The notes under the pieces: model-generated | What the model was told of the DNA's origin: nothing | Databases searched by the model: none | The model's input: only the letters and a program-made list of their open reading frames with translations | Source of the DNA: Escherichia coli | GTDB taxonomy: Bacteria > Pseudomonadota > Gammaproteobacteria > Enterobacterales > Enterobacteriaceae | Reading direction: 5' to 3' (one strand) | NCBI GenBank assembly: GCA_025544715.1 | Contig: GCA_025544715.1_4109.5 | Length of the DNA stretch: 23,806 nucleotides | Translations under genes and position numbers: made by a program | Shown: in pieces, positions 2,252-14,725 of the stretch | Position numbering within the stretch: position 1 is the stretch's first letter | Layout: every line of letters begins with the position of its first letter

Positions 2252-2397
2252 AAGAATTCTTATTCGAAGTAGTGTTTCAAGGTGTCGGTAGTAACCAACT
2301 GATTCGCTCAAGTGGTTACAATGTTAACCAGGCATGGAATAACATTAAACAAATGTACCCGAACGCTATCACATATCGCAACCCGAAAGAAGTTTAA
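2248..2397 (+). CDS. hypothetical small protein (49 aa)
   Basis: translated by hand; ATGA overlap upstream; ends just before terminator-like hairpin. Confidence 0.45.
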   Translation: MKEFLFEVVFQGVGSNQLIRSSGYNVNQAWNNIKQMYPNAITYRNPKEV

Positions 2398-2411
2398 AAA
2401 GAATTGAAAAA

Positions 2412-2433
2412 GGGATTGACTCCGGTCAGTCCC
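2412..2433 (+). terminator. terminator-like hairpin GGGATTGAC-TCCG-GTCAGTCCC
   Basis: 9-bp stem with one G-U pair and 4-nt loop, preceded by A-run, followed by TTTGCTATTATATA. Confidence 0.5.
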
Positions 2434-2444
2434 TTTGCTATTAT
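2416..2444 (+). promoter_or_regulatory. promoter embedded in hairpin
   Basis: TTGACT (2416-2421), 17-nt spacer, TATTAT (2439-2444). Confidence 0.55.
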
Positions 2445-2535
2445 ATACGCATAGAAACAAATCAGCCCACAGGGTGCATAAATGTATCTATTGTTTGCTG
2501 GTGGCTAGTACTGAAAACTATTTTTAAAAAAGTAC

Positions 2536-2563
2536 TTGCATTGTACTTAGAATCAAGTATAAT
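2536..2563 (+). promoter_or_regulatory. sigma70-type promoter of the AAAAAGTACTTGCA class
   Basis: A-tract, TTGCAT (2536-2541), 16-nt spacer, TATAAT (2558-2563), GTTTTACAT downstream; same cassette at 5262, 6118, 6453, 7961. Confidence 0.6.
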
Positions 2564-2651
2564 GTTTTACATCAGGACGGGGAACGAAACAAGTAACCCC
2601 GTTAAGTAGTCCAGGAGTAAGACATAAGAAAACCTCCCCTGATAAAATAGT

Positions 2652-2680
2652 TTGACAATAGAAAGTAAACGAGTATAATA
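2652..2680 (+). promoter_or_regulatory. sigma70-type promoter (consensus)
   Basis: TTGACA (2652-2657), 17-nt spacer, TATAAT (2675-2680), ACTTACATCAA downstream. Confidence 0.7.
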
Positions 2681-2712
2681 CTTACATCAACCACTGATAA
2701 GGAAACATTAAA

Positions 2713-2988
2713 ATGCGGATTCTACTGACAGCTAACGAAATCGAACAAGTACTGACTACTAACCTGGAAGACTGGAAACGTGAAGCAGATATCCAGGCGG
2801 TTCAATGGCTTAACGATAAGTTAACGCCGGATGACTTAAGCAAGATTGTAGATCCTCAATTCTACGAAGATATTCACGACACCGCGTTAAGCGTCGAGGA
2901 TGTACTTGATAAGCACTACATTGATATTGATTTGCAGGTTTACGGTCGTAAAAACTTTATCACTATTCACGACATTTACAATAATTAA
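2713..2988 (+). CDS. hypothetical protein (91 aa)
   Basis: AAGGA RBS 10 nt upstream of ATG; promoter upstream. Confidence 0.7.
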   Translation: MRILLTANEIEQVLTTNLEDWKREADIQAVQWLNDKLTPDDLSKIVDPQFYEDIHDTALSVEDVLDKHYIDIDLQVYGRKNFITIHDIYNN

Positions 2989-2991
2989 GTA

Positions 2992-3019
2992 TTGACAAAG
3001 TATCTTAGTACTGTATAAT
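2992..3019 (+). promoter_or_regulatory. sigma70-type promoter (consensus)
   Basis: TTGACA (2992-2997), 16-nt spacer with AGTACTG, TATAAT (3014-3019); almost identical to promoter at 5569. Confidence 0.7.
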
Positions 3020-3034
3020 AGTTTACATCAAGGC

Positions 3035-3052
3035 AGGGGGAATGGTTCCCCT
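3035..3052 (+). other. 5' leader stem-loop (AGGGGGA / TTCCCCT)
   Basis: inverted repeat with AATGG loop between promoter and RBS. Confidence 0.55.
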
Positions 3053-3076
3053 CCTAACTAAAAGAGAGAAATTAAA

Positions 3077-3913: not shown

Positions 3914-3938
3914 GGCGGGATCAGTTCCCGCCTTTTTT
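3914..3938 (+). terminator. rho-independent terminator
   Basis: GGCGGGA-TCAGT-TCCCGCC 7-bp GC-rich stem followed by TTTTTT. Confidence 0.8.
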
Positions 3939-4536: not shown

Positions 4537-5121
4537 ATGCGTCAATATACTAAATTCATCCGGTCCCTGTCAGAAATGGAAACTAATAAAGAGATCCTTT
4601 CAGCTTGTCGGTTAGCTGGTCTGGAAATCATCGGGGCCGGATCATCCCGTATAGTATTCGCTTTAAATGATCGGTTAGTGATTAAGGTCGCTAATTGTGA
4701 TGCGGGTGTAGAACAAAATGAAACTGAATGTAAGGTATGGAATTTTTTAGACTATGACCGCCCTCAGTTGAAACAGTTCTTTGCTAAGGTGCATATGCAT
4801 TTAAGCGATCCTGATAATATGTTTATTGTTATGGATCGTTTGAGTACTGCAAGCAAAGGCAGTGTAAAGCACGTTAACGCGTGCAACGAATTAAAGTACA
4901 ATATTAAACGTAATGCCATTGAACGCCAGCACCGCTTTGCTGATGCATTACAACACGTTGATGATACCTTATCAACCCTAACGTTAAGAGATATCAGAAA
5001 ACAGAACATCGGCCAGGATCGCAACGGCCTTATTAAAGTACTTGATTACGGTTTAACCCGCAATATCTGGAATCAGTACTATAAAAAGCGTGATGTAAAA
5101 GCCGTAACTATAACACGATAA
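4537..5121 (+). CDS. minimal protein-kinase-like protein (194 aa)
   Basis: AGGAGA RBS 7 nt upstream of ATG 4537 (ORF track extends to 4480). Gly-rich loop IGAGSSRIVF, then VIKV lysine, catalytic-loop-like DIRKQNIG (D-x-K-x-x-N) and DFG-like LDYG. Confidence 0.55.
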   Translation: MRQYTKFIRSLSEMETNKEILSACRLAGLEIIGAGSSRIVFALNDRLVIKVANCDAGVEQNETECKVWNFLDYDRPQLKQFFAKVHMHLSDPDNMFIVMDRLSTASKGSVKHVNACNELKYNIKRNAIERQHRFADALQHVDDTLSTLTLRDIRKQNIGQDRNGLIKVLDYGLTRNIWNQYYKKRDVKAVTITR

Positions 5122-5135
5122 AAAAGATTAAAAAT

Positions 5136-5157
5136 GGGATTGACTTCGGTCAGTCCC
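5136..5157 (+). terminator. terminator-like hairpin GGGATTGAC-TTCG-GTCAGTCCC
   Basis: 9-bp stem, UUCG tetraloop, U-containing tail; directly after stop of kinase-like gene. Confidence 0.5.
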
Positions 5158-5168
5158 TTTGCTATTAT
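5140..5168 (+). promoter_or_regulatory. promoter embedded in hairpin
   Basis: TTGACT, 17-nt spacer, TATTAT (5163-5168). Confidence 0.55.
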
Positions 5169-5261
5169 ATATTCATTGAGAGATAGCTCACTGACCCACA
5201 GGGTGCAGAAGTGTATCTATTATATAAGTATTCAGTACTGAAAACTATTTTTAAAAAGTAC

Positions 5262-5290: not shown

Positions 5291-5301
5291 TTTTATATCG
5301 A

Positions 5302-5323
5302 GAGGGGGAAATGGTTCTCCCTG
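5302..5323 (+). other. 5' leader stem-loop (GGGGGAA / TTCTCCC)
   Basis: inverted repeat with AATGG loop; the loop ATG is the spurious ORF-track start at 5311. Confidence 0.55.
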
Positions 5324-5922: not shown

Positions 5923-6110
5923 CAGTTGAAGAAGTTAAAAAAGTACTGGCAGTACTACGCTATCATAATCATTGCAAGGTTAAGAATGATCCTGATTATC
6001 TTGATTCATCCCTGGAAGAGGATACACTACAAGCAATAAGCCATATGCAAAAAATGCTTAAGCGTATGACTGAAAAGAATAGACCGGACTATATCGGAAA
6101 TAAAATTTAA
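5919..6110 (+). CDS. hypothetical protein (63 aa)
   Basis: ATGA overlap with upstream stop, suggesting translational coupling. Confidence 0.55.
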   Translation: MTVEEVKKVLAVLRYHNHCKVKNDPDYLDSSLEEDTLQAISHMQKMLKRMTEKNRPDYIGNKI

Positions 6111-6145: not shown

Positions 6146-6157
6146 GTTTTACATAGA

Positions 6158-6178
6158 GCGGGGGAATAGTTCTCCCGC
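6158..6178 (+). other. 5' leader stem-loop (GCGGGGGAA / TTCTCCCGC)
   Basis: 9-bp stem with one G-U pair; same hairpin repeated at 7132-7152. Confidence 0.6.
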
Positions 6179-6196
6179 CAGTCCAGGAGATACACC

Positions 6197-6463
6197 ATGA
6201 ACACTATCGAAATCACTATCAATGCTCACGTATACGACAACGTAGTACTGCAAACTACTATGACCGCTCACGATACCAGTACTTTGCGGAATACCGTTGT
6301 AAGTGCTGTATGTGCTGCAATCGGTGATGTAGCCCTGGAAAATGCAGAACACATCAACAACGGTTTCACTATGTGCAAGCGTGATAACGCAAAACATATC
6401 ATCGTAGAAGGTTACGGCGGTGTAGAATATAACCTTTATATGAAAAAAGTACTTGCATCGTAA
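6197..6463 (+). CDS. hypothetical protein (88 aa)
   Basis: CCAGGAG RBS then ATG. Confidence 0.65.
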   Translation: MNTIEITINAHVYDNVVLQTTMTAHDTSTLRNTVVSAVCAAIGDVALENAEHINNGFTMCKRDNAKHIIVEGYGGVEYNLYMKKVLAS

Positions 6464-7119: not shown

Positions 7120-7131
7120 GTTTTACATAGA

Positions 7132-7152
7132 GCGGGGGAATAGTTCTCCCGC
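7132..7152 (+). other. 5' leader stem-loop (GCGGGGGAA / TTCTCCCGC)
   Basis: identical to hairpin at 6158-6178. Confidence 0.6.
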
Positions 7153-7375: not shown

Positions 7376-7393
7376 CAAAAAAGAATAAAAAAA

Positions 7394-7415
7394 GGGATTG
7401 ACTCCGGTCAGTCCC
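7394..7415 (+). terminator. terminator-like hairpin GGGATTGAC-TCCG-GTCAGTCCC
   Basis: same hairpin as 2412-2433. Confidence 0.5.
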
Positions 7416-7426
7416 TTTGCTATTAT
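7398..7426 (+). promoter_or_regulatory. promoter embedded in hairpin
   Basis: TTGACT, 17-nt spacer, TATTAT (7421-7426). Confidence 0.55.
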
Positions 7427-7538
7427 ATACGCATAGACAAAAACTAGCCCACTGGGTGCAGGAGTGTATCCAAAATATATAGTTAATAACGGTGAGTAAC
7501 TATTTGCTGGTGGAGTGAAAACTATTAATAAAAAACTA

Positions 7539-7960: not shown

Positions 7961-7988
7961 TTGCATAGTACTTAGAATCAAGTATAAT
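7961..7988 (+). promoter_or_regulatory. sigma70-type promoter of the AAAAAGTACTTGCA class
   Basis: about 45 bp identical to promoter at 2527-2570. Confidence 0.6.
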
Positions 7989-8000
7989 GTTTTACATAGA

Positions 8001-8022
8001 GAGGGAGAAATGGTTCTCCCTC
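8001..8022 (+). other. 5' leader stem-loop (GAGGGAGAA / TTCTCCCTC)
   Basis: perfect 9-bp inverted repeat with ATGG loop; loop ATG is the spurious ORF-track start 8010. Confidence 0.6.
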
Positions 8023-8941: not shown

Positions 8942-8971
8942 ATGATTGATATTAATTTTAAGGGAGTCCCT

Positions 8972-9169
8972 ATGCATATTTTAACTCAAGCAGAACACCA
9001 CGAAAGACTTATCAATAACATGGCTATGATAATGTATAAGTCACATGAACGTGGTATGTCCTATAAGCGTGAATTAGTTATGGCACTATTCATTGGGACT
9101 AACTTTCAGGAAAGGTATGTCAACGATTGGATTTGGTATTTAATTGAAGATATAACGAGTAAACTATGA
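8972..9169 (+). CDS. family-1 paralog 1 (LGTNYQ-motif small protein)
   Basis: AAGGGAG RBS then ATG 8972 (ORF-track start 8942 is upstream of the RBS); C-terminal LFIGTNFQERYV...IEDITSKL. Confidence 0.65.
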   Translation: MHILTQAEHHERLINNMAMIMYKSHERGMSYKRELVMALFIGTNFQERYVNDWIWYLIEDITSKL

Positions 9170-9366
9170 AAATGCGTAAATTAACCGAAAAAGAATATCA
9201 AGCACTGTTACGTAAAAACTACACAAAGATTTATAATACAGACTCACACGTAGAAAGAATGGAGTTATACCTTTTGATTACATTGGGAACTAACTATCAG
9301 GATGCATGGGTAACGAAATATGTGGATACATTGAAAAATAAAACATTGTCCACGAGGAAACAATGA
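9166..9366 (+). CDS. family-1 paralog 2
   Basis: ATGA overlap; ITLGTNYQDAWV motif. Confidence 0.7.
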   Translation: MKMRKLTEKEYQALLRKNYTKIYNTDSHVERMELYLLITLGTNYQDAWVTKYVDTLKNKTLSTRKQ

Positions 9367-9572
9367 AAACTATAACACGAACCCAATCATTCGGACTTAT
9401 CTTGAAATACATGGACTTAATGGTGGATATCAGCAAAGACCTGCCTAAAACTGAAATTGAAGTTGCAAGAGCAGAGATCCGCATGTTGGCTGTACTGAAC
9501 ACAAACCATCAGGAAGATTATGTTGAAGAATGGATTCATTTTTTAATAGAAGATATTAAGAGTAAATTATGA
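9363..9572 (+). CDS. family-1 paralog 3
   Basis: ATGA overlap; AVLNTNHQEDYV...IEDIKSKL. Confidence 0.7.
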   Translation: MKTITRTQSFGLILKYMDLMVDISKDLPKTEIEVARAEIRMLAVLNTNHQEDYVEEWIHFLIEDIKSKL

Positions 9573-9784
9573 TTATTATAGAAAACTCATATCAATATAC
9601 TGAACGCATTGCTGCCAGGCAACTTGAAATCCTCATAATATACGAAGAGACTTCTGATTTAAACTTAGCTGAGGTATTGGAAAATGAAATACTTTTGGGT
9701 GCATTCTTGGGAACTGACTATCAGGAGTATTATGAGCAAAAGTATTTGTCATCTCTTGAGAAATACATCAGGAGCAAATTATGA
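9569..9784 (+). CDS. family-1 paralog 4
   Basis: ATGA overlap; AFLGTDYQEYY motif. Confidence 0.7.
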   Translation: MIIIENSYQYTERIAARQLEILIIYEETSDLNLAEVLENEILLGAFLGTDYQEYYEQKYLSSLEKYIRSKL

Positions 9785-9993
9785 TTTTTTTAACACCTGA
9801 AGAATATAAGAAACGTTTTAATTCTGTCCAGACTGAAATATTACTTATATACCTTTCAAATGCAGACCTTAACTTATCAAGGGCAATGGAGAAGGATTTA
9901 CTTATGGGTGCATTTTTGGATACAGACTTTCAGGAGTATTATGTAGGGAAATACTTAATTGAACTTCAGAACTACATTAAGAGTAAACTATGA
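9781..9993 (+). CDS. family-1 paralog 5
   Basis: ATGA overlap; AFLDTDFQEYYV motif. Confidence 0.7.
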   Translation: MIFLTPEEYKKRFNSVQTEILLIYLSNADLNLSRAMEKDLLMGAFLDTDFQEYYVGKYLIELQNYIKSKL

Positions 9994-10208
9994 AACATTT
10001 AAGTAATATAGAGAAGAATAAAATTATCATAGCTGCAATAAACAAATATTTTACACTTCAACAAAAAGAATGTTTATCTATAAGGGAACACAGAATAAAC
10101 ACCACCGATGTACGCATGATGGCTGTACTGGGGACTAACTTCCAAGAAGGCTATGTTCATGAGCACATCGTTGCACTCACTAATTACATAATGGACAAAT
10201 GTAAATGA
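9990..10208 (+). CDS. family-1 paralog 6
   Basis: ATGA overlap; AVLGTNFQEGYV motif. Confidence 0.7.
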   Translation: MKHLSNIEKNKIIIAAINKYFTLQQKECLSIREHRINTTDVRMMAVLGTNFQEGYVHEHIVALTNYIMDKCK

Positions 10209-10417
10209 AACGTCTTAGCAGCAGAGAATATTCTGCTATATTACATAAAGCTTTACCTGAGTTACAAAACATCGAGACGACCATCCCTGAGCCAACGCGA
10301 GGTGTACTGTTTACGGATTGTATGTTATTACACTTCATGGGAACTAATCACCAAGAATCTATAGTATCATCTCTCATCAACGCACTTAAACTTGAAATAA
10401 GAGACAAATGTAAATGA
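10205..10417 (+). CDS. family-1 paralog 7
   Basis: ATGA overlap; HFMGTNHQESIV motif. Confidence 0.7.
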   Translation: MKRLSSREYSAILHKALPELQNIETTIPEPTRGVLFTDCMLLHFMGTNHQESIVSSLINALKLEIRDKCK

Positions 10418-10671
10418 AACACTTGACAGACGATGAATATTCACTTAGAATTCGAAAGCTCACCCCAGAAGCAAGAGTAATCTACGATGACGATGCACTT
10501 TCATGGGTAGAGATGAAAGTTAAAGTTAATGAGCTATGGTTGCTGTACTTTCTGGGGACTAACTATCAAGAGAAATATTGCACCGATTACATTGAACAAC
10601 TAATGGAACTTATACAGGAAAAACTAAATGATCGAATTGTGGAAAAATATGAAAACTTTATCAAGCACTGA
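10414..10671 (+). CDS. family-1 paralog 8 with C-terminal extension
   Basis: ATGA overlap; YFLGTNYQEKY motif; usual junction stop is missing, giving a 13-aa extension overlapping the next gene. Confidence 0.65.
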   Translation: MKHLTDDEYSLRIRKLTPEARVIYDDDALSWVEMKVKVNELWLLYFLGTNYQEKYCTDYIEQLMELIQEKLNDRIVEKYENFIKH

Positions 10672-10900
10672 GTATCAAACTGCCCTATTCTCTTTACTAA
10701 ACACCCTTCGCAAGAACAATGAACTTTATCCTTCCCCTGAGAATGATGTAGTTAATGGAGACGTGCTCCTTCTTAAATTCATTGGAACTGATAAACAAGA
10801 TACCTTCACTGATCGTTATATCAATGCACTAAGAAACCTTGTAGCATATAAAACCCGCAAGGCCCAAAGAGAATGGAAGAGACAATGCGACAAAGACTAA
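10628..10900 (+). CDS. family-1 paralog 9
   Basis: KFIGTDKQDTF motif; family-like N-terminus begins at in-frame ATG 10649, so the true start may be 10649. Confidence 0.6.
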   Translation: MIELWKNMKTLSSTEYQTALFSLLNTLRKNNELYPSPENDVVNGDVLLLKFIGTDKQDTFTDRYINALRNLVAYKTRKAQREWKRQCDKD

Positions 10901-11136
10901 ATCACAAAATGTATTGTAAACTATTACAATCACTGGCACAGAAACACTATGATACAGTATCTGAAATATTACCCTATGATATCATGCGTTTAATTCATAG
11001 TGAGGCCGAGATGCTTGTACTGATGAGAGGGACTGATAAAACAGCAATAGCCAGATCGATTGAGCAATATATTGATGCACACTGCCAACACATGAGAACC
11101 GAAATCTGGAGGAAAGAGAATGAAACTCCTGAGTAA
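10873..11136 (+). CDS. family-1 paralog 10 (divergent)
   Basis: LMRGTDKTAIARSIEQYI keeps G-T-D and spacing but loses the Q; overlapping frame. Confidence 0.55.
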   Translation: MEETMRQRLNHKMYCKLLQSLAQKHYDTVSEILPYDIMRLIHSEAEMLVLMRGTDKTAIARSIEQYIDAHCQHMRTEIWRKENETPE

Positions 11137-11353
11137 TTATGAATATTATAGTCTGTTGCGAACTATACAAGCAAAAGTTTCTAGTATTTCTTTAAACAAA
11201 TCTATTGCACAAGAGGACAAATGTGTTATAATGGCTGAAATGAAGTTAGCTCTCTTCGTTGGAACAAACTATCAAAACATCTACACTGACGTATTGTTAG
11301 CCAGCCTACGCAACAAGGTGTTATCCAAAAATGAGAAAATTACAAGGTGTTGA
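11120..11353 (+). CDS. family-1 paralog 11
   Basis: MKLLSNYEYYSLLR N-terminus; LFVGTNYQNIY motif. Confidence 0.65.
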   Translation: MKLLSNYEYYSLLRTIQAKVSSISLNKSIAQEDKCVIMAEMKLALFVGTNYQNIYTDVLLASLRNKVLSKNEKITRC

Positions 11354-11549
11354 ATATATTAAGCTTCTGAAAACCTGTGCAAGCAGAAGGAGAAAGATTC
11401 AAAATGATAAAAGCATCTCTATTGACCTTAAGCACGCACTAGTAACTGAACTCTATGTAGGTGCACTCTTAGGCACAGACTATCAACAAATGTATGTAGA
11501 CATGTGGATTGAGGCTCTACTGAAAGAGGTTAAAAGTAAATGCAAATGA
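11331..11549 (+). CDS. family-1 paralog 12
   Basis: ALLGTDYQQMYV...KSKCK. Confidence 0.65.
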   Translation: MRKLQGVEYIKLLKTCASRRRKIQNDKSISIDLKHALVTELYVGALLGTDYQQMYVDMWIEALLKEVKSKCK

Positions 11550-11785
11550 TTAATTTAACTTATATTGAATATCAAAAACGTTTAAATGCATCCAGAGATA
11601 TAAGGATTCAAATATTCAATAACAAAAGATTGAAGCCTGATATCAGGAAAATCAAAATCATAGAAGCAGAGTTGTGCAACTTTTTAGGGACGAACTATCA
11701 GGCAGGTAAGGTAAAAAACTATCTTAGAGAACTCATGAATAGTATTGAAAATAAATGCAAGGATAATGAATATGAAAATGATTAA
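11540..11785 (+). CDS. family-1 paralog 13
   Basis: NFLGTNYQAGKV motif; in-frame ATG 11546 would give the usual ATGA overlap. Confidence 0.65.
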   Translation: MQMINLTYIEYQKRLNASRDIRIQIFNNKRLKPDIRKIKIIEAELCNFLGTNYQAGKVKNYLRELMNSIENKCKDNEYEND

Positions 11786-12011
11786 ATTATCTCAAGCAAA
11801 ATATAAAGAACGCCTGGTGAAAATTGCACCTGGACTTAATGAAATCCATCACGGAGAAGTCATTAAACATGGAAATAAGATGATTATGAAACTTGAGTTA
11901 AAGGTGGGTGCATTCATAGGAACAAACTATCAGGAGTATTATGTAGATGAATACATAATCGCACTTAAGAGATACATTGGAAGAAAACTATATCTACAAA
12001 CTAAAGAATAG
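11772..12011 (+). CDS. family-1 paralog 14
   Basis: ORF-track start 11745 is TTG; ATG 11772 follows AAGGA; AFIGTNYQEYYV motif. Confidence 0.6.
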   Translation: MKMIKLSQAKYKERLVKIAPGLNEIHHGEVIKHGNKMIMKLELKVGAFIGTNYQEYYVDEYIIALKRYIGRKLYLQTKE

Positions 12012-12040
12012 TATTGAAAATAAATGCGAGGATAATGAAC

Positions 12041-12304
12041 ATGAAAATGATTAATTTAAGTAAAGATGAATATACCGAGCGTATGGCAAAAATCTCAACT
12101 AAACGTAACACACTCTATCACAACCCAGAAATTCAACACAGTAAGAAAATGATTATGATGCGTGAGTTAAAGATGGGAGTATTCTTAGGAACAAACTATC
12201 AAGATACAGAAGTAAATCGCTTAATTTCGGAGTTACTAATGGAAATCAGAGGTAAGCTGTACTTTCATCAAATTACCCAACCACTGAGGTGTACTAAGAA
12301 ATGA
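12041..12304 (+). CDS. family-1 paralog 15
   Basis: ORF-track start 12014 is TTG; ATG 12041 follows GAGGA; VFLGTNYQDTEV motif. Confidence 0.6.
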   Translation: MKMINLSKDEYTERMAKISTKRNTLYHNPEIQHSKKMIMMRELKMGVFLGTNYQDTEVNRLISELLMEIRGKLYFHQITQPLRCTKK

Positions 12305-12516
12305 TCAACATCACATTGCAAGAAAGATTCATCCGAATCAACTATGCAATTACCAAATTAGATGCTACTATAGGATTCCAAAGTCTACCATATAAAACCA
12401 GATTGTTATTAGAGTGTGAAGCTAAGTTGGGTGTACTGTTAGGGACGCAACACCAACAACGATATGTGGAAATCTGGATTGACCTTTTAACCCAAAATAT
12501 ATATGAGAGAATGTAA
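12301..12516 (+). CDS. family-1 paralog 16
   Basis: ATGA overlap; VLLGTQHQQRYV motif. Confidence 0.7.
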   Translation: MINITLQERFIRINYAITKLDATIGFQSLPYKTRLLLECEAKLGVLLGTQHQQRYVEIWIDLLTQNIYERM

Positions 12517-12753
12517 ATGCAAAATGAAATGATATACTTAACGAATGAAGAATTTCAAGAGAAGATGTTAAAAACCAAAAACATTAATCTTAAGTTCGTT
12601 CCAAATCAATCAATATCTGAAGTATCTGCAAATGTATTGTTTCAGAAGCTACCATACTTTCTTGGAACTGATAAACAAGAATTTATGGTTCAAAATATGA
12701 TTGAACATCTTATGATGAGTATTAAGGAAAAAGTAAATGCAAAAACAAAATGA
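12517..12753 (+). CDS. family-1 paralog 17
   Basis: starts right after upstream stop; YFLGTDKQEFMV motif; N-terminus MQNEMIYLT shared with next gene. Confidence 0.65.
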   Translation: MQNEMIYLTNEEFQEKMLKTKNINLKFVPNQSISEVSANVLFQKLPYFLGTDKQEFMVQNMIEHLMMSIKEKVNAKTK

Positions 12754-13003
12754 AATGATATACTTAACACCTGCTGAGTTAACAGAAAGACTAGTTAAAT
12801 CCAGAAGATATACAAATCAACTTCCTCACAACCCAAACCAGACCCCAGCCGAAAGGAGTGCAGAAGTTTTATTCCAATCACTACCATACCTTCTTGGAAC
12901 TAATAGACAAGAGTATCATATCGAACGTATAATTAGATATCTTAAAATTACTATTCAGGAAAAGATACATGAACAAGAATATAAAAATCTTTACGGTCAA
13001 TGA
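12737..13003 (+). CDS. family-1 paralog 18
   Basis: YLLGTNRQEYHI motif; N-terminus MQKQNEMIYLT. Confidence 0.65.
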   Translation: MQKQNEMIYLTPAELTERLVKSRRYTNQLPHNPNQTPAERSAEVLFQSLPYLLGTNRQEYHIERIIRYLKITIQEKIHEQEYKNLYGQ

Positions 13004-13226
13004 ATATCATGATATTATAATGAAGACGAATATTGTAAATTCTAAAATTTCAAATACCAAGTTCATCCTTGAACATACATTAGAAGAACGACAATTGATA
13101 TTAGTTGAAGCAAAACTTCTTGCACTATTAGGTTCTAACTATCAAGACGAGTACATAAGAAAACTAATATACCTTTTAACTAAACATATCAGAAAAAAGA
13201 CACATGAAACACTTGACAGACGATGA
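12969..13226 (+). CDS. family-1 paralog 19
   Basis: ALLGSNYQDEYI motif. Confidence 0.65.
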   Translation: MNKNIKIFTVNEYHDIIMKTNIVNSKISNTKFILEHTLEERQLILVEAKLLALLGSNYQDEYIRKLIYLLTKHIRKKTHETLDRR

Positions 13227-13434
13227 ACATGGGCTTATAGTAATGGATGTAATCAACATCGAATACAAAAAGTTGATACGCTACCGTTGTTATGAAGATA
13301 AGCAACTAGTTCTAGCAGAACAGAAGTTGTTTCGACTCTTAAACACAAACTACCAAGCACAATACGAAGAATCGTATATGTACCTTTTGGCGAGGAAAGC
13401 AAAAAGAGATTATGAAAATTTTAAGCAAAGGTGA
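13204..13434 (+). CDS. family-1 paralog 20
   Basis: RLLNTNYQAQY motif; first 24 nt identical to paralog 8 (ATGAAACACTTGACAGACGATGAA). Confidence 0.65.
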   Translation: MKHLTDDEHGLIVMDVINIEYKKLIRYRCYEDKQLVLAEQKLFRLLNTNYQAQYEESYMYLLARKAKRDYENFKQR

Positions 13435-13639
13435 TTCAGTAATATTACTTATAGAGAGTTCAAGTCAATTCTTAAACATATCACTGTCTGATATAGATGA
13501 AGATGATAAAGAAGTACTGAGAGCAGATTTAAGAGTACTGTTACATCTCGGAACAAACCTACAAGAAAGATATGTAGAGTACTACATTGATGAACTTAAA
13601 GAATCAGTACTGAGAAAATGCAAATGCAAATGCGAATGA
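13412..13639 (+). CDS. family-1 paralog 21
   Basis: HLGTNLQERYV motif; C-terminus KCKCKCE encoded by AAATGC hexamer repeat. Confidence 0.65.
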   Translation: MKILSKGDSVILLIESSSQFLNISLSDIDEDDKEVLRADLRVLLHLGTNLQERYVEYYIDELKESVLRKCKCKCE

Positions 13640-13851
13640 TTACCGACGAAGAATACCTAACAATCATAAATGGACTGTTTTTGAAGCTCTTCGTCATTAA
13701 CACATCAGATATACCAGATATGGATAAAATTATTAAGAGAAATGAAATCTATGTTCTAGCTACCCTGGGAACTAACTATCAAGAATACGATATTAATGAT
13801 TATATTAAGACACTTAAACGAGCGATTGAACTAAAATGCCAAAACCACTAG
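13618..13851 (+). CDS. family-1 paralog 22
   Basis: ATLGTNYQEYDI motif; start may be ATG 13636 (ATGA overlap). Confidence 0.6.
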   Translation: MQMQMRMITDEEYLTIINGLFLKLFVINTSDIPDMDKIIKRNEIYVLATLGTNYQEYDINDYIKTLKRAIELKCQNH

Positions 13852-14051
13852 GAACAGCAGAATACATTGAACTCATGGGATTACACTTCTCATCCTTTCA
13901 GAAACTTATGCGAGAATCAAAGAATGATTTAGAATATACCATCAGAGGTTCAGATTTAAGAATGCTTCTCACCCTAGACACAGATTCCCAAGAGCGATTT
14001 GTCAATGAGCACATTAGAGCACTTTTAATGGAAATTCAAAGTAAACTATGA
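13836..14051 (+). CDS. family-1 paralog 23
   Basis: TLDTDSQERFV motif. Confidence 0.65.
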   Translation: MPKPLGTAEYIELMGLHFSSFQKLMRESKNDLEYTIRGSDLRMLLTLDTDSQERFVNEHIRALLMEIQSKL

Positions 14052-14263
14052 AGGTAATATCAAACCAAGAGTACTTGGCACTATTCAGAAAGAATAATCA
14101 TAAATTTATGGCACTTGATACAAGAACTGATATAGGGGAACTTGAAAAAAATCTTTTGCGTTCAGAGATGATAGTACTGACACTCTTAGGAACACAGCAT
14201 CAAGAAAGAACTGTTAATTCACACATAGAAATACTTAAGAAGCTTATACAGGAAAAGTTATGA
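14048..14263 (+). CDS. family-1 paralog 24
   Basis: ATGA overlap; TLLGTQHQERTV motif. Confidence 0.7.
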   Translation: MKVISNQEYLALFRKNNHKFMALDTRTDIGELEKNLLRSEMIVLTLLGTQHQERTVNSHIEILKKLIQEKL

Positions 14264-14481
14264 GAATCATAACACAACAAGATATGTTTAAGTTCACAAG
14301 GGATTATGCATCTGAATTTGATGCTATATTATCAAAAAGTTACAATGACCCTTATACAGAAGATGTACACTACAATGAATTATGGATGTATATACTTTTA
14401 GGTACAAATAAGCAAGAGCAAGCAGTACAGAAGTATTTGACAGCCTTAAGTACTGCTACTGCTAATGGAGTATGTGTTTAA
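14260..14481 (+). CDS. family-1 paralog 25
   Basis: ATGA overlap; ILLGTNKQEQAV motif. Confidence 0.7.
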   Translation: MRIITQQDMFKFTRDYASEFDAILSKSYNDPYTEDVHYNELWMYILLGTNKQEQAVQKYLTALSTATANGVCV

Positions 14482-14725
14482 AATGCTAGTACTGACAGAA
14501 TTAGAAATGGCAATGAGGTTTAATAGATTCAGACATTTACTTAAACCTATACAGAGGATTAAGTGCCCATTTGTAGTGAAACAGGTATTAATTTATGAGC
14601 ATAAGTTATTTGTATCATTAGGTACGAATGAACAAGAGTATTATTTGAAGTTGTACTTAATTACATTAATAGATTTAATTCACTATAAAACCAAACAAGC
14701 TAATAAAGAGAAATATGAAAACTAA
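14465..14725 (+). CDS. family-1 paralog 26
   Basis: VSLGTNEQEYYL motif; alternative start ATG 14483. Confidence 0.6.
   Translation: MEYVFKMLVLTELEMAMRFNRFRHLLKPIQRIKCPFVVKQVLIYEHKLFVSLGTNEQEYYLKLYLITLIDLIHYKTKQANKEKYEN

What the first reader, a model, noticed from the sequence alone, without database searches (positions are those of the whole stretch)
2536..2651. Promoter plus leader unit with no gene behind it (decayed gene start or small RNA)
The promoter at 2536-2563 is almost identical to those at 7961 and 6118 and is followed by a hairpin and the RBS-like GTCCAGGAG (compare CAGTCCAGGAGATACACCATG at 6177-6199), but here the expected ATG is missing (..CCAGGAGTAAGACATAAG..) and the next promoter begins about 40 nt later. 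Either this is the remnant of a gene start lost by deletion, or the unit makes a short non-coding transcript.
Basis: seen in the sequence. Interest (0 to 1): 0.5.

Follow-up and report, generated by a model that had tools for sequence, protein, structure and literature searches.

The report
Phage early RNA antisense to ghxP
The "promoter with no gene" is a conserved phage unit that makes a small folded RNA instead of a protein, and in this phage the RNA is an almost perfect mirror image of the start of the E. coli guanine/hypoxanthine transporter message, so it probably switches that host gene off early in infection.

Summary
Window 2536-2563 is one of five or six near-identical promoters. It is followed by a hairpin and an SD-like CCAGGAG, but there is no start codon or ORF, and the next promoter starts at 2652.

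It is not a private decay product. The window is the terminal-repeat early region of an Asteriusvirus (a PBECO4/121Q-like E. coli jumbo phage). The transcribed ~75 nt (2569-2648) is present, always without an ORF, in all 45 related phage records. These include unrelated ~145-kb Stephanstirmvirinae/Vequintavirinae phages, where other promoters drive it and other genes follow it. Asteriusviruses carry a second copy.

All variants fold alike: a closing stem, a hairpin with a variable loop, and a second hairpin with a 16-nt loop. Three stem changes are G-C to G-U. No Rfam family matches.

Window 2620-2642 matches E. coli at one place only (22/23). That place is the complement of the Shine-Dalgarno sequence and AUG of ghxP.

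Best reading: an early phage RNA, derived from a cassette leader, that blocks ghxP translation by antisense pairing. Confidence is about 0.45 for the target and about 0.75-0.8 for a selected RNA unit.

Caveats:
- There is no terminator.
- Complementarity is weaker in other alleles.
- There are no expression data.

The parts
2409..2436 (+). Terminator-like hairpin closing the upstream cassette (AAAGGGATTGAC-TCCG-GTCAGTCCCTTT). It is part of a 3-copy repeat module and marks the upstream boundary of the unit's intergenic region.
2536..2563 (+). Promoter of the unit: -35 TTGCAT (2536-2541), 16-nt spacer, -10 TATAAT (2558-2563), with an A/T-rich tract at 2518-2531 upstream. It belongs to the class AAGTACTTGC-N-GTATAATGTTTTACAT.
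   Evidence: Function is inferred from consensus only.
2569..2648 (+). Conserved ORF-less transcribed unit (~75-80 nt). The predicted +1 is at A2569 or A2571 in the conserved ACAT initiator.
   Evidence: Present in 45 phage records. 15 distinct variants were aligned, with 92% mean column identity. The covariance model finds only these copies. MFE is -19.2 kcal/mol, z = -2.9.
2571..2576 (+). P1 5' strand, ATCAGG. It pairs with 2638-2643.
   Evidence: Invariant in 15/15 variants.
2577..2602 (+). P2 hairpin: ACGGGG / CCCCGT with a 14-nt loop (2583-2596). The loop varies in sequence and length between phages.
   Evidence: Three sequences, at two pair positions, carry G-C to G-U changes, which are compatible with RNA on this strand only.
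2603..2617 (+). Invariant single-stranded linker TAAGTAG(T/C)CCA plus the SD-like GGAG (2614-2617, the P3 5' strand). This is homologous to the TIR of normal cassettes.
2618..2633 (+). 16-nt P3 loop, TAAGACATAAGAAAAC, predicted to be unpaired.
   Evidence: unpaired probabilities
2620..2642 (+). 23-nt stretch AGACATAAGAAAACCTCCCCTGA. It is complementary in 22/23 positions to the E. coli ghxP mRNA 5'-UCAGGGGAUGUUUUCUUAUGUCU-3', which contains the SD GGGGA and the AUG. The single mismatch is at C2634.
2634..2643 (+). P3 3' strand CTCC (2634-2637) and P1 3' strand CCTGAT (2638-2643).
2652..2679 (+). Next promoter (TTGACA-16-TATAAT, a 12/12 match), which serves the gene at 2713. No terminator separates it from the unit.
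2713..2988 (+). Downstream 91-aa gene (phrog_14947, unknown function). It is not specifically linked to the unit, because six different genes follow the unit in other phages or copies.

Best explanation
The unit is a cassette whose cargo is an RNA rather than a protein.

**How it is made.** A host-type (sigma-70-like) early promoter in the phage's ~21-kb terminal repeat starts transcription at about 2569-2571.

**How it folds.** The first ~75 nt fold into three helices:
- a closing stem, P1 (2571-2576 with 2638-2643);
- a 5' hairpin, P2, with a variable loop;
- a second hairpin, P3 (GGAG/CUCC), that displays a 16-nt loop.

**Where it came from.** By descent it is the leader and ribosome-binding region of an ordinary early-gene cassette that lost its ORF (inferred).

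**Evidence of selection.** It has since been kept as an ORF-less unit in two unrelated groups of E. coli phages and duplicated in Asteriusvirus. I read that as selection on the RNA (inferred from conservation).

**Proposed action.** In the allele of this window, the P3 loop and the 3' strands of P3 and P1 form a 22/23 antisense match to the Shine-Dalgarno sequence and start codon of the host guanine/hypoxanthine transporter gene ghxP (shown). The most likely mechanism is that pairing begins in the loop, opens P3 and P1, and occludes the ghxP ribosome-binding site. That would shut off new GhxP synthesis early in infection (inferred).

**3' end.** There is no terminator. The RNA therefore either acts as the 5' part of a read-through transcript into the gene at 2713, or is cut out by host RNases, as DicF is (inferred).

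**Sub-claim confidence.**
- A selected, independently transcribed non-coding unit rather than a neutral relic: about 0.75-0.8.
- ghxP as its target: about 0.45.
For: 1. **Distribution.** The 88-nt leader is found in 45 phage records. These are 38 records of Asteriusvirus-type jumbo phages and 7 records (six phages; muut appears under two accessions) of ~145-kb Stephanstirmvirinae/Vequintavirinae phages, at 84-100% identity, and none has an annotated or possible gene.
2. **Conservation boundaries.** In the ~145-kb phages the upstream promoters have different sequences (TTGACA types). Six different genes follow the unit. Conservation starts at the -10/+1 region and ends at the next -35.
3. **Copy number.** A second copy lies ~10 kb upstream in the terminal repeat of Asteriusviruses. 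PBECO4 and JP4 gained cassettes on either side without disturbing the unit.
4. **Strength of conservation.** The RNA is 94% identical to A73 (89% over the 137-nt BLAST segment with promoter flanks), while shared protein genes are 73-87% identical.
5. **Structure.** All variants give the same three-helix fold. 98.6% of pair cells are standard pairs, against 37-50% when the partners are slid. Variation concentrates in the P2 loop. The stem changes are G-C to G-U.
6. **Host match.** blastn against 5426 E. coli genomes gives a single locus in 4907 genomes, at 22/23 (24/26 in some strains). It lies on the strand opposite to ghxP and spans its SD and ATG.
   - Three other non-coding queries from the same phage region gave no hit at the same threshold.
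   - A degenerate 23-mer pattern scanned over 185,579 species genomes hit only this ghxP site, in Escherichia/Shigella-type sequence.
   - The reverse search, ghxP TIR against 50,697 phage records, returns only the four Asteriusviruses that carry this allele, in antisense orientation.
7. **Energetics.** Co-folding with 141 nt of ghxP mRNA gives a net gain after opening both RNAs. The values are -23.9 kcal/mol (this allele), -19.7 (121Q/A73 allele), -14.3 (PBECO4), and -8.3 and -8.9 (most divergent alleles). P2 is retained in the complex. 13 of the 23 antisense nucleotides sit in the predicted open loop.
8. **Precedents.** The related jumbo phage PA5oct has two highly transcribed ncRNAs in its terminal repeat by RNA-seq (PMC7318152). 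DicF is a phage-derived RNA cut from an operon transcript that blocks a host TIR (PMC12197685).
Against: - No transcript data exist for any of these phages. The promoter, the +1 and the existence of a discrete RNA are all predictions.
- There is no intrinsic terminator and no U-tail. A defined 3' end, as in classical sRNAs, is missing.
- The antisense stretch is not the best-conserved part. Four of its 23 positions vary. Complementarity falls from 22/23 to 21, 20, 19 and about 17-18 in other alleles. The copy-2 allele gives no BLAST hit in E. coli. The invariant parts (P1, the P2 stem, the linker and the SD-like motif) point to an additional or different constraint.
- Energy alone does not single out ghxP. 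In 100 kb of E. coli, RNAduplex windows reach -34.5 kcal/mol, against -40 for ghxP. A crude extreme-value fit allows tens of such sites per genome.
- Almost no covariation supports the fold, because the stems are nearly invariant.
- No literature links ghxP (yjcD) to phage infection or to sRNA control, and I cannot give a compelling reason why the phage would need to silence it.
- The match could be a historical capture of host DNA with no present role.
Confidence: 0.45

Rival explanations
1. A cis-acting structured leader, or simply a tandem promoter. Transcripts from 2536 read through the second promoter into the gene at 2713 and beyond. The conserved fold acts only in cis. It could be a 5' cap-like structure that protects the long early transcript from RNase E. 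Alternatively it could be a put-like RNA that makes RNA polymerase resistant to the terminators between cassettes, so that it can reach the promoter-less gene array beyond ~8.9 kb.
For: - There is no terminator between the unit and the gene.
- The 5' end of the transcript is base-paired, as in the 5' hairpins of every normal cassette.
- Terminator-like hairpins lie downstream at 3914, 5136 and 7391.
- They are followed by more than 60 tightly packed ORFs without promoters.
- The most conserved parts of the unit are structural and lie outside the ghxP-antisense stretch.
- A weak third relative sits as a long leader in front of CRJP21 gp_11.
Against: - Every downstream gene has its own consensus promoter within 10 nt of the unit, so read-through is not needed for that gene.
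- Ordinary cassettes achieve 5' protection with a simple hairpin.
- This reading does not explain the 22/23 match to a host TIR.
- No similarity to a known antiterminator RNA could be tested. Rfam gives nothing.
Confidence: 0.25
2. A neutral relic. This would be a gene cassette that lost its ORF and start codon and survives only by hitch-hiking between two useful promoters. On this reading the ghxP match is coincidence or an old captured scrap.
For: - The leader is built like the neighbouring cassettes.
- CCAGGAGTAAGA is a normal TIR module.
- ACG or AAG sits where an ATG is expected.
- Within Asteriusvirus the flanks are as conserved as the unit (94-99%).
- Cassettes are exchanged freely between these phages. 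The cassette downstream in phage muut is nearly identical to the window's.
Against: - All 45 genomes of two phage families retain the unit despite rapid cassette gain and loss around it.
- Different promoters and different neighbours flank it.
- Two full copies occur per Asteriusvirus genome.
- It is conserved more than the shared coding genes.
- Substitutions avoid the stems or give G-U pairs.
- The host match has a BLAST expectation of roughly 1e-3 per E. coli genome, before taking into account that it falls antisense on a TIR.
Confidence: 0.12
3. A protein or ribosome decoy. On this reading the RNA titrates a host RNA-binding factor through its two CAGGA(C/G)G motifs (2573-2579 and 2612-2618), as the CsrA sponges CsrB and CsrC do. 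Alternatively it binds 30S subunits through its start-codon-less SD.
For: - There are two invariant CAGGA motifs 39 nt apart.
- The second can be presented in a 9-nt loop closed by GUC/GAC, the only pair that shows a compensatory change (U-A to C-G in 5 sequences).
- The resemblance to the CsrB repeat CAGGA(U/C/A)G comes from my own knowledge.
Against: - In the predicted fold both motifs are inside stems.
- Two sites are few for a sponge.
- AGGAG is in any case expected in a former TIR.
- The single covariation is confounded by haplotype linkage.
- This was not tested further.
Confidence: 0.07
4. A 7-codon micro-ORF on the reverse strand: GGGGAGG-N7-ATG TCT TAC TCC TGG ACT ACT TAA, at 2641-2603.
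For: - The reverse complement has a strong SD and an ATG at ideal spacing.
- The ATG becomes GTG in some variants.
- A weak promoter-like site lies on the minus strand at 2700-2672.
Against: - The SD+ATG look is explained by the match to the real ghxP TIR.
- All three variable positions inside the ORF change the start codon or an amino acid, and none is synonymous.
- The minus-strand promoter-like site is the back of the variable downstream promoter and is absent in A7_1.
- All genes in the region are on the plus strand.
Confidence: 0.02

Closest known systems
DicF RNA of the Qin/Kim defective prophage (blocks ftsZ and other host mRNAs)
   Same: It is a phage-derived, ORF-less short RNA that base-pairs with the ribosome-binding region of a host mRNA. 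It can be released from a longer operon transcript by RNase III/E rather than ended by its own terminator (PMC12197685).
   Different: There is no sequence or Rfam relationship. DicF sits in a prophage and is Hfq-dependent. The present unit is in virulent phages, has its own promoter directly in front, has a three-helix fold with paired ends, and has a much longer (22/23) match to a different target, a purine transporter.
C4 antisense RNA of P1/P7 and CI RNA of P4 (Rfam C4, RF01695; recalled from my own knowledge)
   Same: These are phage RNAs of about 77-79 nt with paired 5' and 3' ends enclosing two hairpins. Their loops carry the antisense sequences, and they are matured from a longer transcript.
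   Different: Their targets are the phage's own transcripts, for immunity control. No phage target was found here, and the Rfam model does not match even at E<=10.
HK022 putL/putR antiterminator RNAs (my own knowledge)
   Same: They are promoter-proximal, ORF-less, ~70-nt two-hairpin RNAs present in two copies per genome at the head of early transcription units that contain terminators.
   Different: put RNAs act in cis on RNA polymerase and have no host antisense stretch.
ncRNA001/ncRNA002 of Pseudomonas jumbo phage PA5oct (same Rak2/121Q-like clade)
   Same: They are highly transcribed ORF-less regions inside the direct terminal repeat of a related jumbo phage, found by RNA-seq, with unknown function (PMC7318152).
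   Different: They are 236-451 nt long and were reported to have no sequence similarity to anything else. No structure or target has been proposed.
Ordinary early-gene cassettes of this phage (promoter, 5' hairpin, SD, small ORF)
   Same: They share the promoter class, the ACAT initiator, the 5' hairpin position and the CCAGGAG(TAAGA) SD module.
   Different: The unit has no start codon and no ORF. It has an extra closing stem and a second hairpin, and it is conserved across phage families independently of any gene.

Membership tests
Any curated RNA family (Rfam 15), including C4 antisense RNA | Covariance-model match at or near the gathering score | tested here: not met
   There were no matches at gathering thresholds in the whole window. 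At E<=10 on 2380-2720, the only hits were two chance-level matches on the minus strand (CRISPR-DR65, a snoRNA).
tRNA / tmRNA | ARAGORN-detectable cloverleaf | tested here: not met
   0 genes in the window.
Trans-acting base-pairing sRNA that blocks a TIR | Own promoter and no ORF | tested here: met
   A promoter-like site lies directly upstream in every phage, with three different promoter sequences. There is no start codon or ORF. Promoter activity itself was not measured.
Trans-acting base-pairing sRNA that blocks a TIR | Extended complementarity to the SD/start-codon region of a target mRNA | tested here: met
   22/23 match to ghxP, in antisense orientation, covering the SD and the AUG. Net cofold gain is -23.9 kcal/mol.
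Trans-acting base-pairing sRNA that blocks a TIR | Seed or target complementarity conserved among homologues | tested here: inconclusive
   An 8-nt block (CCCCUGA plus the preceding U) that pairs with the ghxP SD is invariant. Total complementarity drops to about 17-21 of 23 in other alleles. The copy-2 allele has no BLAST hit.
Trans-acting base-pairing sRNA that blocks a TIR | Defined 3' end (intrinsic terminator with a U-tail) and Hfq binding | tested here: not met
   There is no terminator-like site between 2569 and 2713. Hfq binding is not testable with these tools.
Trans-acting base-pairing sRNA that blocks a TIR | Accumulation of a discrete RNA and repression of the target in vivo | not testable with these tools
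   No transcriptome data for Asteriusvirus or Stephanstirmvirinae turned up in the library.
Protein-coding early cassette (intact or recently decayed) | A start codon at SD spacing, or an intact ORF at this place in relatives | tested here: not met
   ACG or AAG sits at the expected position. 0 of 45 relatives have an ORF in the unit.
put-type processive antiterminator RNA | Promoter-proximal two-hairpin RNA upstream of terminators | tested here: inconclusive
   The architecture is compatible, but that is generic. Homology and read-through activity were not testable.
CsrB-like CsrA sponge | Multiple GGA motifs displayed in hairpin loops | tested here: inconclusive
   There are only two CAGGA motifs, both inside predicted stems. 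An alternative 3-bp hairpin would expose one of them.

The most novel reading that the evidence does not exclude
Virulent E. coli phages of two unrelated lineages share a mobile 'RNA cassette'. It is an early, terminal-repeat-encoded antisense RNA that knocks down the host guanine/hypoxanthine importer GhxP. Its alleles are tuned by point mutation, running from 17 to 22 of 23 complementary positions. If true, purine uptake or GhxP itself matters for infection, whether through nucleotide economy, exclusion or defence. It would also mean that lytic phages use captured host TIR fragments as ready-made antisense knock-down modules.
Probability: 0.4. Interest if true: 0.75.

Novelty: new member of a known kind. 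Interest (0 to 1): 0.6.

Why it matters
Regulatory RNAs of virulent phages are almost unknown. The few well-studied phage RNAs that act on host messages come from prophages.

Here a simple sequence oddity turns out to be an unannotated RNA family. No gene can be encoded in the unit in any of the 45 GenBank records, and where anything is annotated over it, it is only a short hypothetical ORF. The family is present in jumbo and mid-sized coliphages used in therapy and biocontrol studies.

It comes with a concrete, cheap-to-test target hypothesis: ghxP translation. If confirmed, it would give four things:
- a first host target for the very large set of early genes of unknown function in the terminal repeats of Rak2/121Q-like jumbo phages;
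- a new link between phage infection and purine salvage;
- an example of how a gene cassette can be converted into an RNA cassette;
- a reason to annotate such units, because gene callers either leave them blank or fill them with spurious ORFs.

Tried and rejected
- **Reverse-strand 7-codon ORF.** I noticed it first. It is explained by the ghxP TIR match, and all variable sites in it are non-synonymous.
- **Antisense targets inside the phage.**
  - Complementary k-mers in the window and in the whole 142-kb A73 genome are no more frequent than for shuffled queries. The long 'hits' are same-sense SD modules of other cassettes.
  - RNAduplex scanning of the window was no better than with shuffled RNAs.
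- **Energy-based significance of the ghxP pairing.** Against 100 kb of E. coli, the observed -40 kcal/mol beats the best background window (-34.5). A crude Gumbel extrapolation predicts tens of equal sites per genome. Energy alone is therefore not evidence, and the identity statistic carries the argument.
- **More distant homologues.** Three IMG/VR pattern scans and one metagenome scan returned only Asteriusvirus contigs. The plasmid collection gave nothing.
- **Covariance model.** It found only the canonical copies, plus one weak divergent element in CRJP21 at 5948-6012 (25.7 bits). That element's own fold is not better than shuffles.
- **Host matches for other elements.** The copy-2 allele, the third element and the upstream repeat module gave none.
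- **Rfam and ARAGORN.** Both gave nothing.
- **CMSTMSU variant** (missing CAG in the SD). I discounted it because that record carries many single-base indels in neighbouring genes.
- **Function of flanking genes.** They match only PHROGs of unknown function and have no Pfam hit.
- **Literature.** Nothing was found on ghxP/yjcD and phage or sRNA, or on Asteriusvirus promoters or transcripts.
Full report
**1. Where the window comes from**

The region 2300-3000 is 94-99% identical to 38 records of jumbo E. coli/Salmonella phages of the genus Asteriusvirus (PBECO4, 121Q, slurp01 and others). The closest is vB_EcoM_CRJP21 at 99%. Window position x corresponds to CRJP21 position x + 10,731.

The finding therefore lies about 13.3 kb into the direct terminal repeat, which published genome papers put at about 21 kb (PMC13070987; PMC11895373).

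All genes are on the plus strand. The first ~9 kb is a series of single-gene cassettes. Each cassette has its own promoter, a 5' hairpin, an SD and a small ORF.

**2. The observation**

- -35 TTGCAT at 2536-2541, a 16-nt spacer and -10 TATAAT at 2558-2563;
- a hairpin, ACGGGG (2577-2582) with CCCCGT (2597-2602);
- GTCCAGGAG at 2609-2617;
- no ATG, GTG or TTG at SD spacing and no credible ORF;
- the next promoter, TTGACA-16-TATAAT (12/12), at 2652-2679.

The promoter belongs to a repeat family with copies at 2527, 5253, 6109, 6444, 7083 and 7952. The pattern AAGTACTTGC-N17-19-GTATAATGTTTT occurs five times in the window, against none in 100 shuffles. It occurs at least ten times in the first 18 kb of CRJP21, always on the plus strand. 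The other copies are followed by hairpin, SD and ATG.

**3. It is not a private decay product**

PBECO4 and JP4 looked at first as if they might carry the 'missing' gene, because their matches are 226-270 bp longer. Reading them shows something else. PBECO4 has an extra promoter-plus-gene cassette inserted upstream of the unit. JP4 has one inserted downstream. In both, the ORF-less unit itself is intact.

A search with the transcribed part alone (2564-2651) found it in 45 phage records. Seven of these (six phages; muut appears under two accessions) are not jumbo phages. They are ~137-147-kb phages filed under Stephanstirmvirinae (Justusliebigvirus) or Vequintavirinae: A73, W70, A7_1, A5-4, EmilieFrey, outra and muut. 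Identity to these is 84-94%.

In those phages:
- the unit is driven by promoters of different sequence (TTGACA-N17-TATAAT, -TAAAAT or -TAAGAT);
- different genes follow it;
- it is again followed within a few bases by another promoter.

Asteriusviruses also carry a second full copy about 10 kb upstream in the terminal repeat, in front of yet another gene. Six different genes follow the unit in the various phages and copies.

Conservation begins at the -10/+1 region and stops at the next -35. Between this window and the whole A73 genome, the unit is the best-conserved shared segment. The BLAST segment, which includes promoter flanks, is 89% identical over 137 nt. The RNA part alone is 94% identical. 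The shared protein-coding genes are 87, 74 and 73% identical.

No record has a possible gene in the unit. A few automatic annotations place short spurious ORFs over it.

**4. Anatomy of the RNA**

The conserved ACAT initiator places the predicted start at A2569 or A2571.

The 82-nt RNA folds at -19.2 kcal/mol, z = -2.9 against dinucleotide shuffles. The fold has three helices:
- P1: AUCAGG (2571-2576) with CCUGAU (2638-2643);
- P3: GGAG (2614-2617) with CUCC (2634-2637), enclosing a 16-nt loop.

Fifteen distinct variants were aligned. All give the same consensus fold.

Pair counts:
- 98.6% of pair cells are standard pairs, against 37-50% when partners are slid by 1-3 columns.
- The variable columns cluster in the P2 loop, which also varies in length.
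- Three sequences carry stem changes, at two pair positions, and all are G-C to G-U. These preserve pairing only in RNA of this strand.

P1 and P3 never vary, so they neither support nor contradict the fold. The only double change is U-A to C-G in an alternative 3-bp helix, GUC/GAC. It is confounded by haplotype linkage.

The structural evidence is therefore consistent but thin. The stronger argument for selection is the conservation pattern in section 3.

No Rfam family matches at gathering scores or at E<=10. There is no tRNA or tmRNA.

A covariance model built from the alignment finds only the canonical copies. The one exception is a weak divergent relative in CRJP21 at 5948-6012 (25.7 bits). 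It lies in front of gp_11, and there the P3 pairs read CCAG/CUGG instead of GGAG/CUCC. That element does not fold better than shuffles, so I give it little weight.

**5. Origin**

The unit is built like a normal cassette leader. CCAGGAGTAAGA is a standard ribosome-binding module in these phages, for example TTCCAGGAGTAAGAGAAATG in front of A73_21 and CAGTCCAGGAGATACACCATG at 6179-6199. Where an ATG would be expected, the unit reads ACG (most alleles) or AAG (this window).

It does not describe what the unit is now.

**6. The host match**

While checking the reverse strand I noted that the reverse complement looks like a perfect translation start: GGGGAGG, seven bases, then ATG. A blastn of the unit against 5426 complete E. 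coli genomes explains this.
- There is exactly one matching locus, present in 4907 genomes.
- It is 22/23 identical (24/26 in some strains) to window 2620-2642.
- It lies on the strand opposite to ghxP (yjcD), the guanine/hypoxanthine transporter gene, and covers its Shine-Dalgarno sequence and start codon.

The plus-strand RNA of the unit is therefore antisense to 5'-UCAGGGGAUGUUUUCUUAUGUCU-3' of the ghxP mRNA. The single mismatch is at C2634.

Controls:
- The copy-2 allele, the weak third element and the neighbouring repeat module gave no E. coli hit at the same threshold.
- A degenerate 23-mer allowing all phage alleles was scanned over one genome from each of 185,579 species. It hit only this ghxP site. 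All eight loci were Escherichia/Shigella or E. coli-identical sequence in mislabelled records.
- Searching the ghxP TIR against 50,697 phage records returned only the four Asteriusviruses that carry this allele, in antisense orientation.
- Salmonella ghxP has the same TIR minus one U.

Significance, by my own arithmetic from the reported scores:
- The BLAST bit score (38-39) corresponds to an expectation of roughly 1e-3 for one E. coli genome.
- That is before considering that the match falls antisense on a TIR, which makes up about 1-3% of positions.
- I therefore regard the match as non-random.

**7. Would it pair?**

Thirteen of the 23 antisense nucleotides lie in the predicted open 16-nt loop. 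The rest are the 3' strands of P3 and P1.

Co-folding the RNA with 141 nt of ghxP mRNA gives a complex in which P2 persists and P1 and P3 open to cover the SD through codon 2. The net gain, after paying for opening both RNAs, depends on the allele:

| Allele | Net gain (kcal/mol) |
|---|---|
| This window | -23.9 |
| 121Q/A73 | -19.7 |
| PBECO4 | -14.3 |
| EmilieFrey | -8.3 |
| Copy 2 (CRJP21) | -8.9 |

**8. What weakens the ghxP reading**

- The antisense stretch contains four of the few variable positions outside the P2 loop. The 22/23 allele occurs only in four closely related records plus this window. Other alleles have 21, 20, 19 or about 17-18 matches.
- The invariant linker and SD-like motif are not explained by ghxP pairing.
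- An energy-only null fails. 100 kb of E. coli already yields RNAduplex windows down to -34.5 kcal/mol, against -40 for ghxP. A crude extreme-value fit allows tens of equal sites per genome.
- There is no terminator, so a discrete RNA needs processing.
- No paper links ghxP/yjcD to phages or to sRNA control.
- No transcriptome exists for these phages.
- I cannot say why silencing a purine importer would help the phage.

**9. Other targets and functions considered**

No complementary site beyond chance exists in the window, in 36 kb of CRJP21, or in the whole A73 genome. A C4/CI-like action on the phage's own transcripts is therefore unsupported.

Three rivals remain:
- read-through or cis-leader roles, meaning stabilisation or put-like antitermination ahead of the terminators at 3914, 5136 and 7391 and the promoter-less ORF array beyond 8.9 kb;
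- a CsrA or ribosome decoy role, based on the two CAGGA motifs;
- a neutral relic.

The reverse-strand micro-ORF is rejected (section 6).

**10. Comparison with what is known**

Functionally, the closest cases are these:
- DicF, a phage-derived RNA cut from an operon transcript that blocks host TIRs (PMC12197685).
- The C4/CI RNAs of P1/P7/P4, which have paired ends and two hairpins with antisense loops (my own knowledge).
- HK022 put RNAs, which are promoter-proximal, ORF-less, two-hairpin RNAs present in two copies (my own knowledge).
- The two abundant ncRNAs found by RNA-seq in the terminal repeat of the related jumbo phage PA5oct (PMC7318152).

The unit is not a member of any curated RNA family. 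I file it as a new family of a known kind, a phage-encoded regulatory RNA. Its distinctive features are:
- it occurs in virulent phages of two lineages;
- it is arranged as promoter-RNA-promoter;
- it has no terminator;
- its proposed target is a host purine-transporter TIR.

**11. Verdict**

| Question | Verdict |
|---|---|
| Observation | Confirmed |
| Selected, independently promoted RNA unit | Confidence about 0.75-0.8 |
| Acts by antisense repression of ghxP | Confidence about 0.45 |
| Interest | 0.6 |

The hypothesis is concrete, unexpected for virulent phages, and testable with a Northern blot and a reporter fusion.

Noticed in passing
window 2396-2530, 5120-5252, 7378-7530 (also L009 ~780-1000, upstream of copy 2 in 121Q): A second repeated non-coding module. 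It consists of a terminator-like hairpin (AAAGGGATTGAC-UCCG/UUCG-GTCAGTCCCTTT) that itself contains a promoter-like TTGACT-17-TGCTATTAT, then a conserved ~45 nt (CATAGA..GCCCACNGGGTGC..AGTGTATC), then GTACTGAAAACTATTTTTAAAAAGTAC and the next promoter. It folds strongly (-39.4 kcal/mol, z = -4.2). It has no E. coli match. It could be another small RNA or a terminator/insulator module.
   Followed up: partly
window 8942-14725: A tandem array of about 26 paralogous ~70-aa ORFs with overlapping stops and starts and no promoters of their own. GC is 0.30-0.33, against 0.37-0.42 upstream. There are 152 pairwise blastp hits at E<1e-3. The change of architecture at ~9-10 kb coincides with where the ~21-kb terminal repeat should end.
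   Followed up: partly
L027 (CRJP21) 5948-6012, outside the window: A weak, divergent relative of the unit (25.7 bits, E = 3e-4) that forms a ~115-nt leader in front of gp_11. It shares ACATCAAGACGGGGA, TAAGTAG and a P3-like hairpin with the stem changed to CCAG/CUGG. Its own fold is no better than shuffles, and it has no host match.
   Followed up: partly
window 2652-3069 vs L006 (phage muut) 1590-2003; L001 1700-1945; L002 1850-2125: Early-gene cassettes are exchanged between Asteriusvirus and Stephanstirmvirinae. The promoter and the start of the gene at 2713 read essentially identical in muut, and the whole 515-nt BLAST segment that also includes the unit is 93.8% identical, while the adjacent unit alone is only 84% identical. 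PBECO4 and JP4 have extra cassettes inserted at promoter boundaries. This suggests recombination at the shared promoter sequences.
   Followed up: partly
window 5296-5320, 6156-6180, 7128-7150, 7998-8022 and equivalents in A73, EmilieFrey and A7_1: Nearly every cassette transcript begins ACAT(A/C)RAG followed by a G-rich hairpin (for example GCGGGGGAA-UAG-UUCUCCCGC). These are probably 5' stabilising stem-loops shared by both phage groups.
   Followed up: no
window 2536-2541 and the other promoters of this class: The -35 of this promoter class is only 3/6 to TTGACA (TTGCAT/TTGCAA, within the conserved GTACTTGCA). The interleaved second class is a perfect TTGACA-16-TATAAT. The two classes might be used at different times or need a phage factor.
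   Followed up: no
L015 (CMSTMSU), L019, L021, L026, and hits H137/H138: Data-quality issues in public records. CMSTMSU has many single-base indels. Two Salmonella chromosomal contigs sit in the phage collection. A 'Bacillota MAG' contig and two 'Enterobacter hormaechei' chromosomes carry E. coli-identical ghxP sequence.
   Followed up: no
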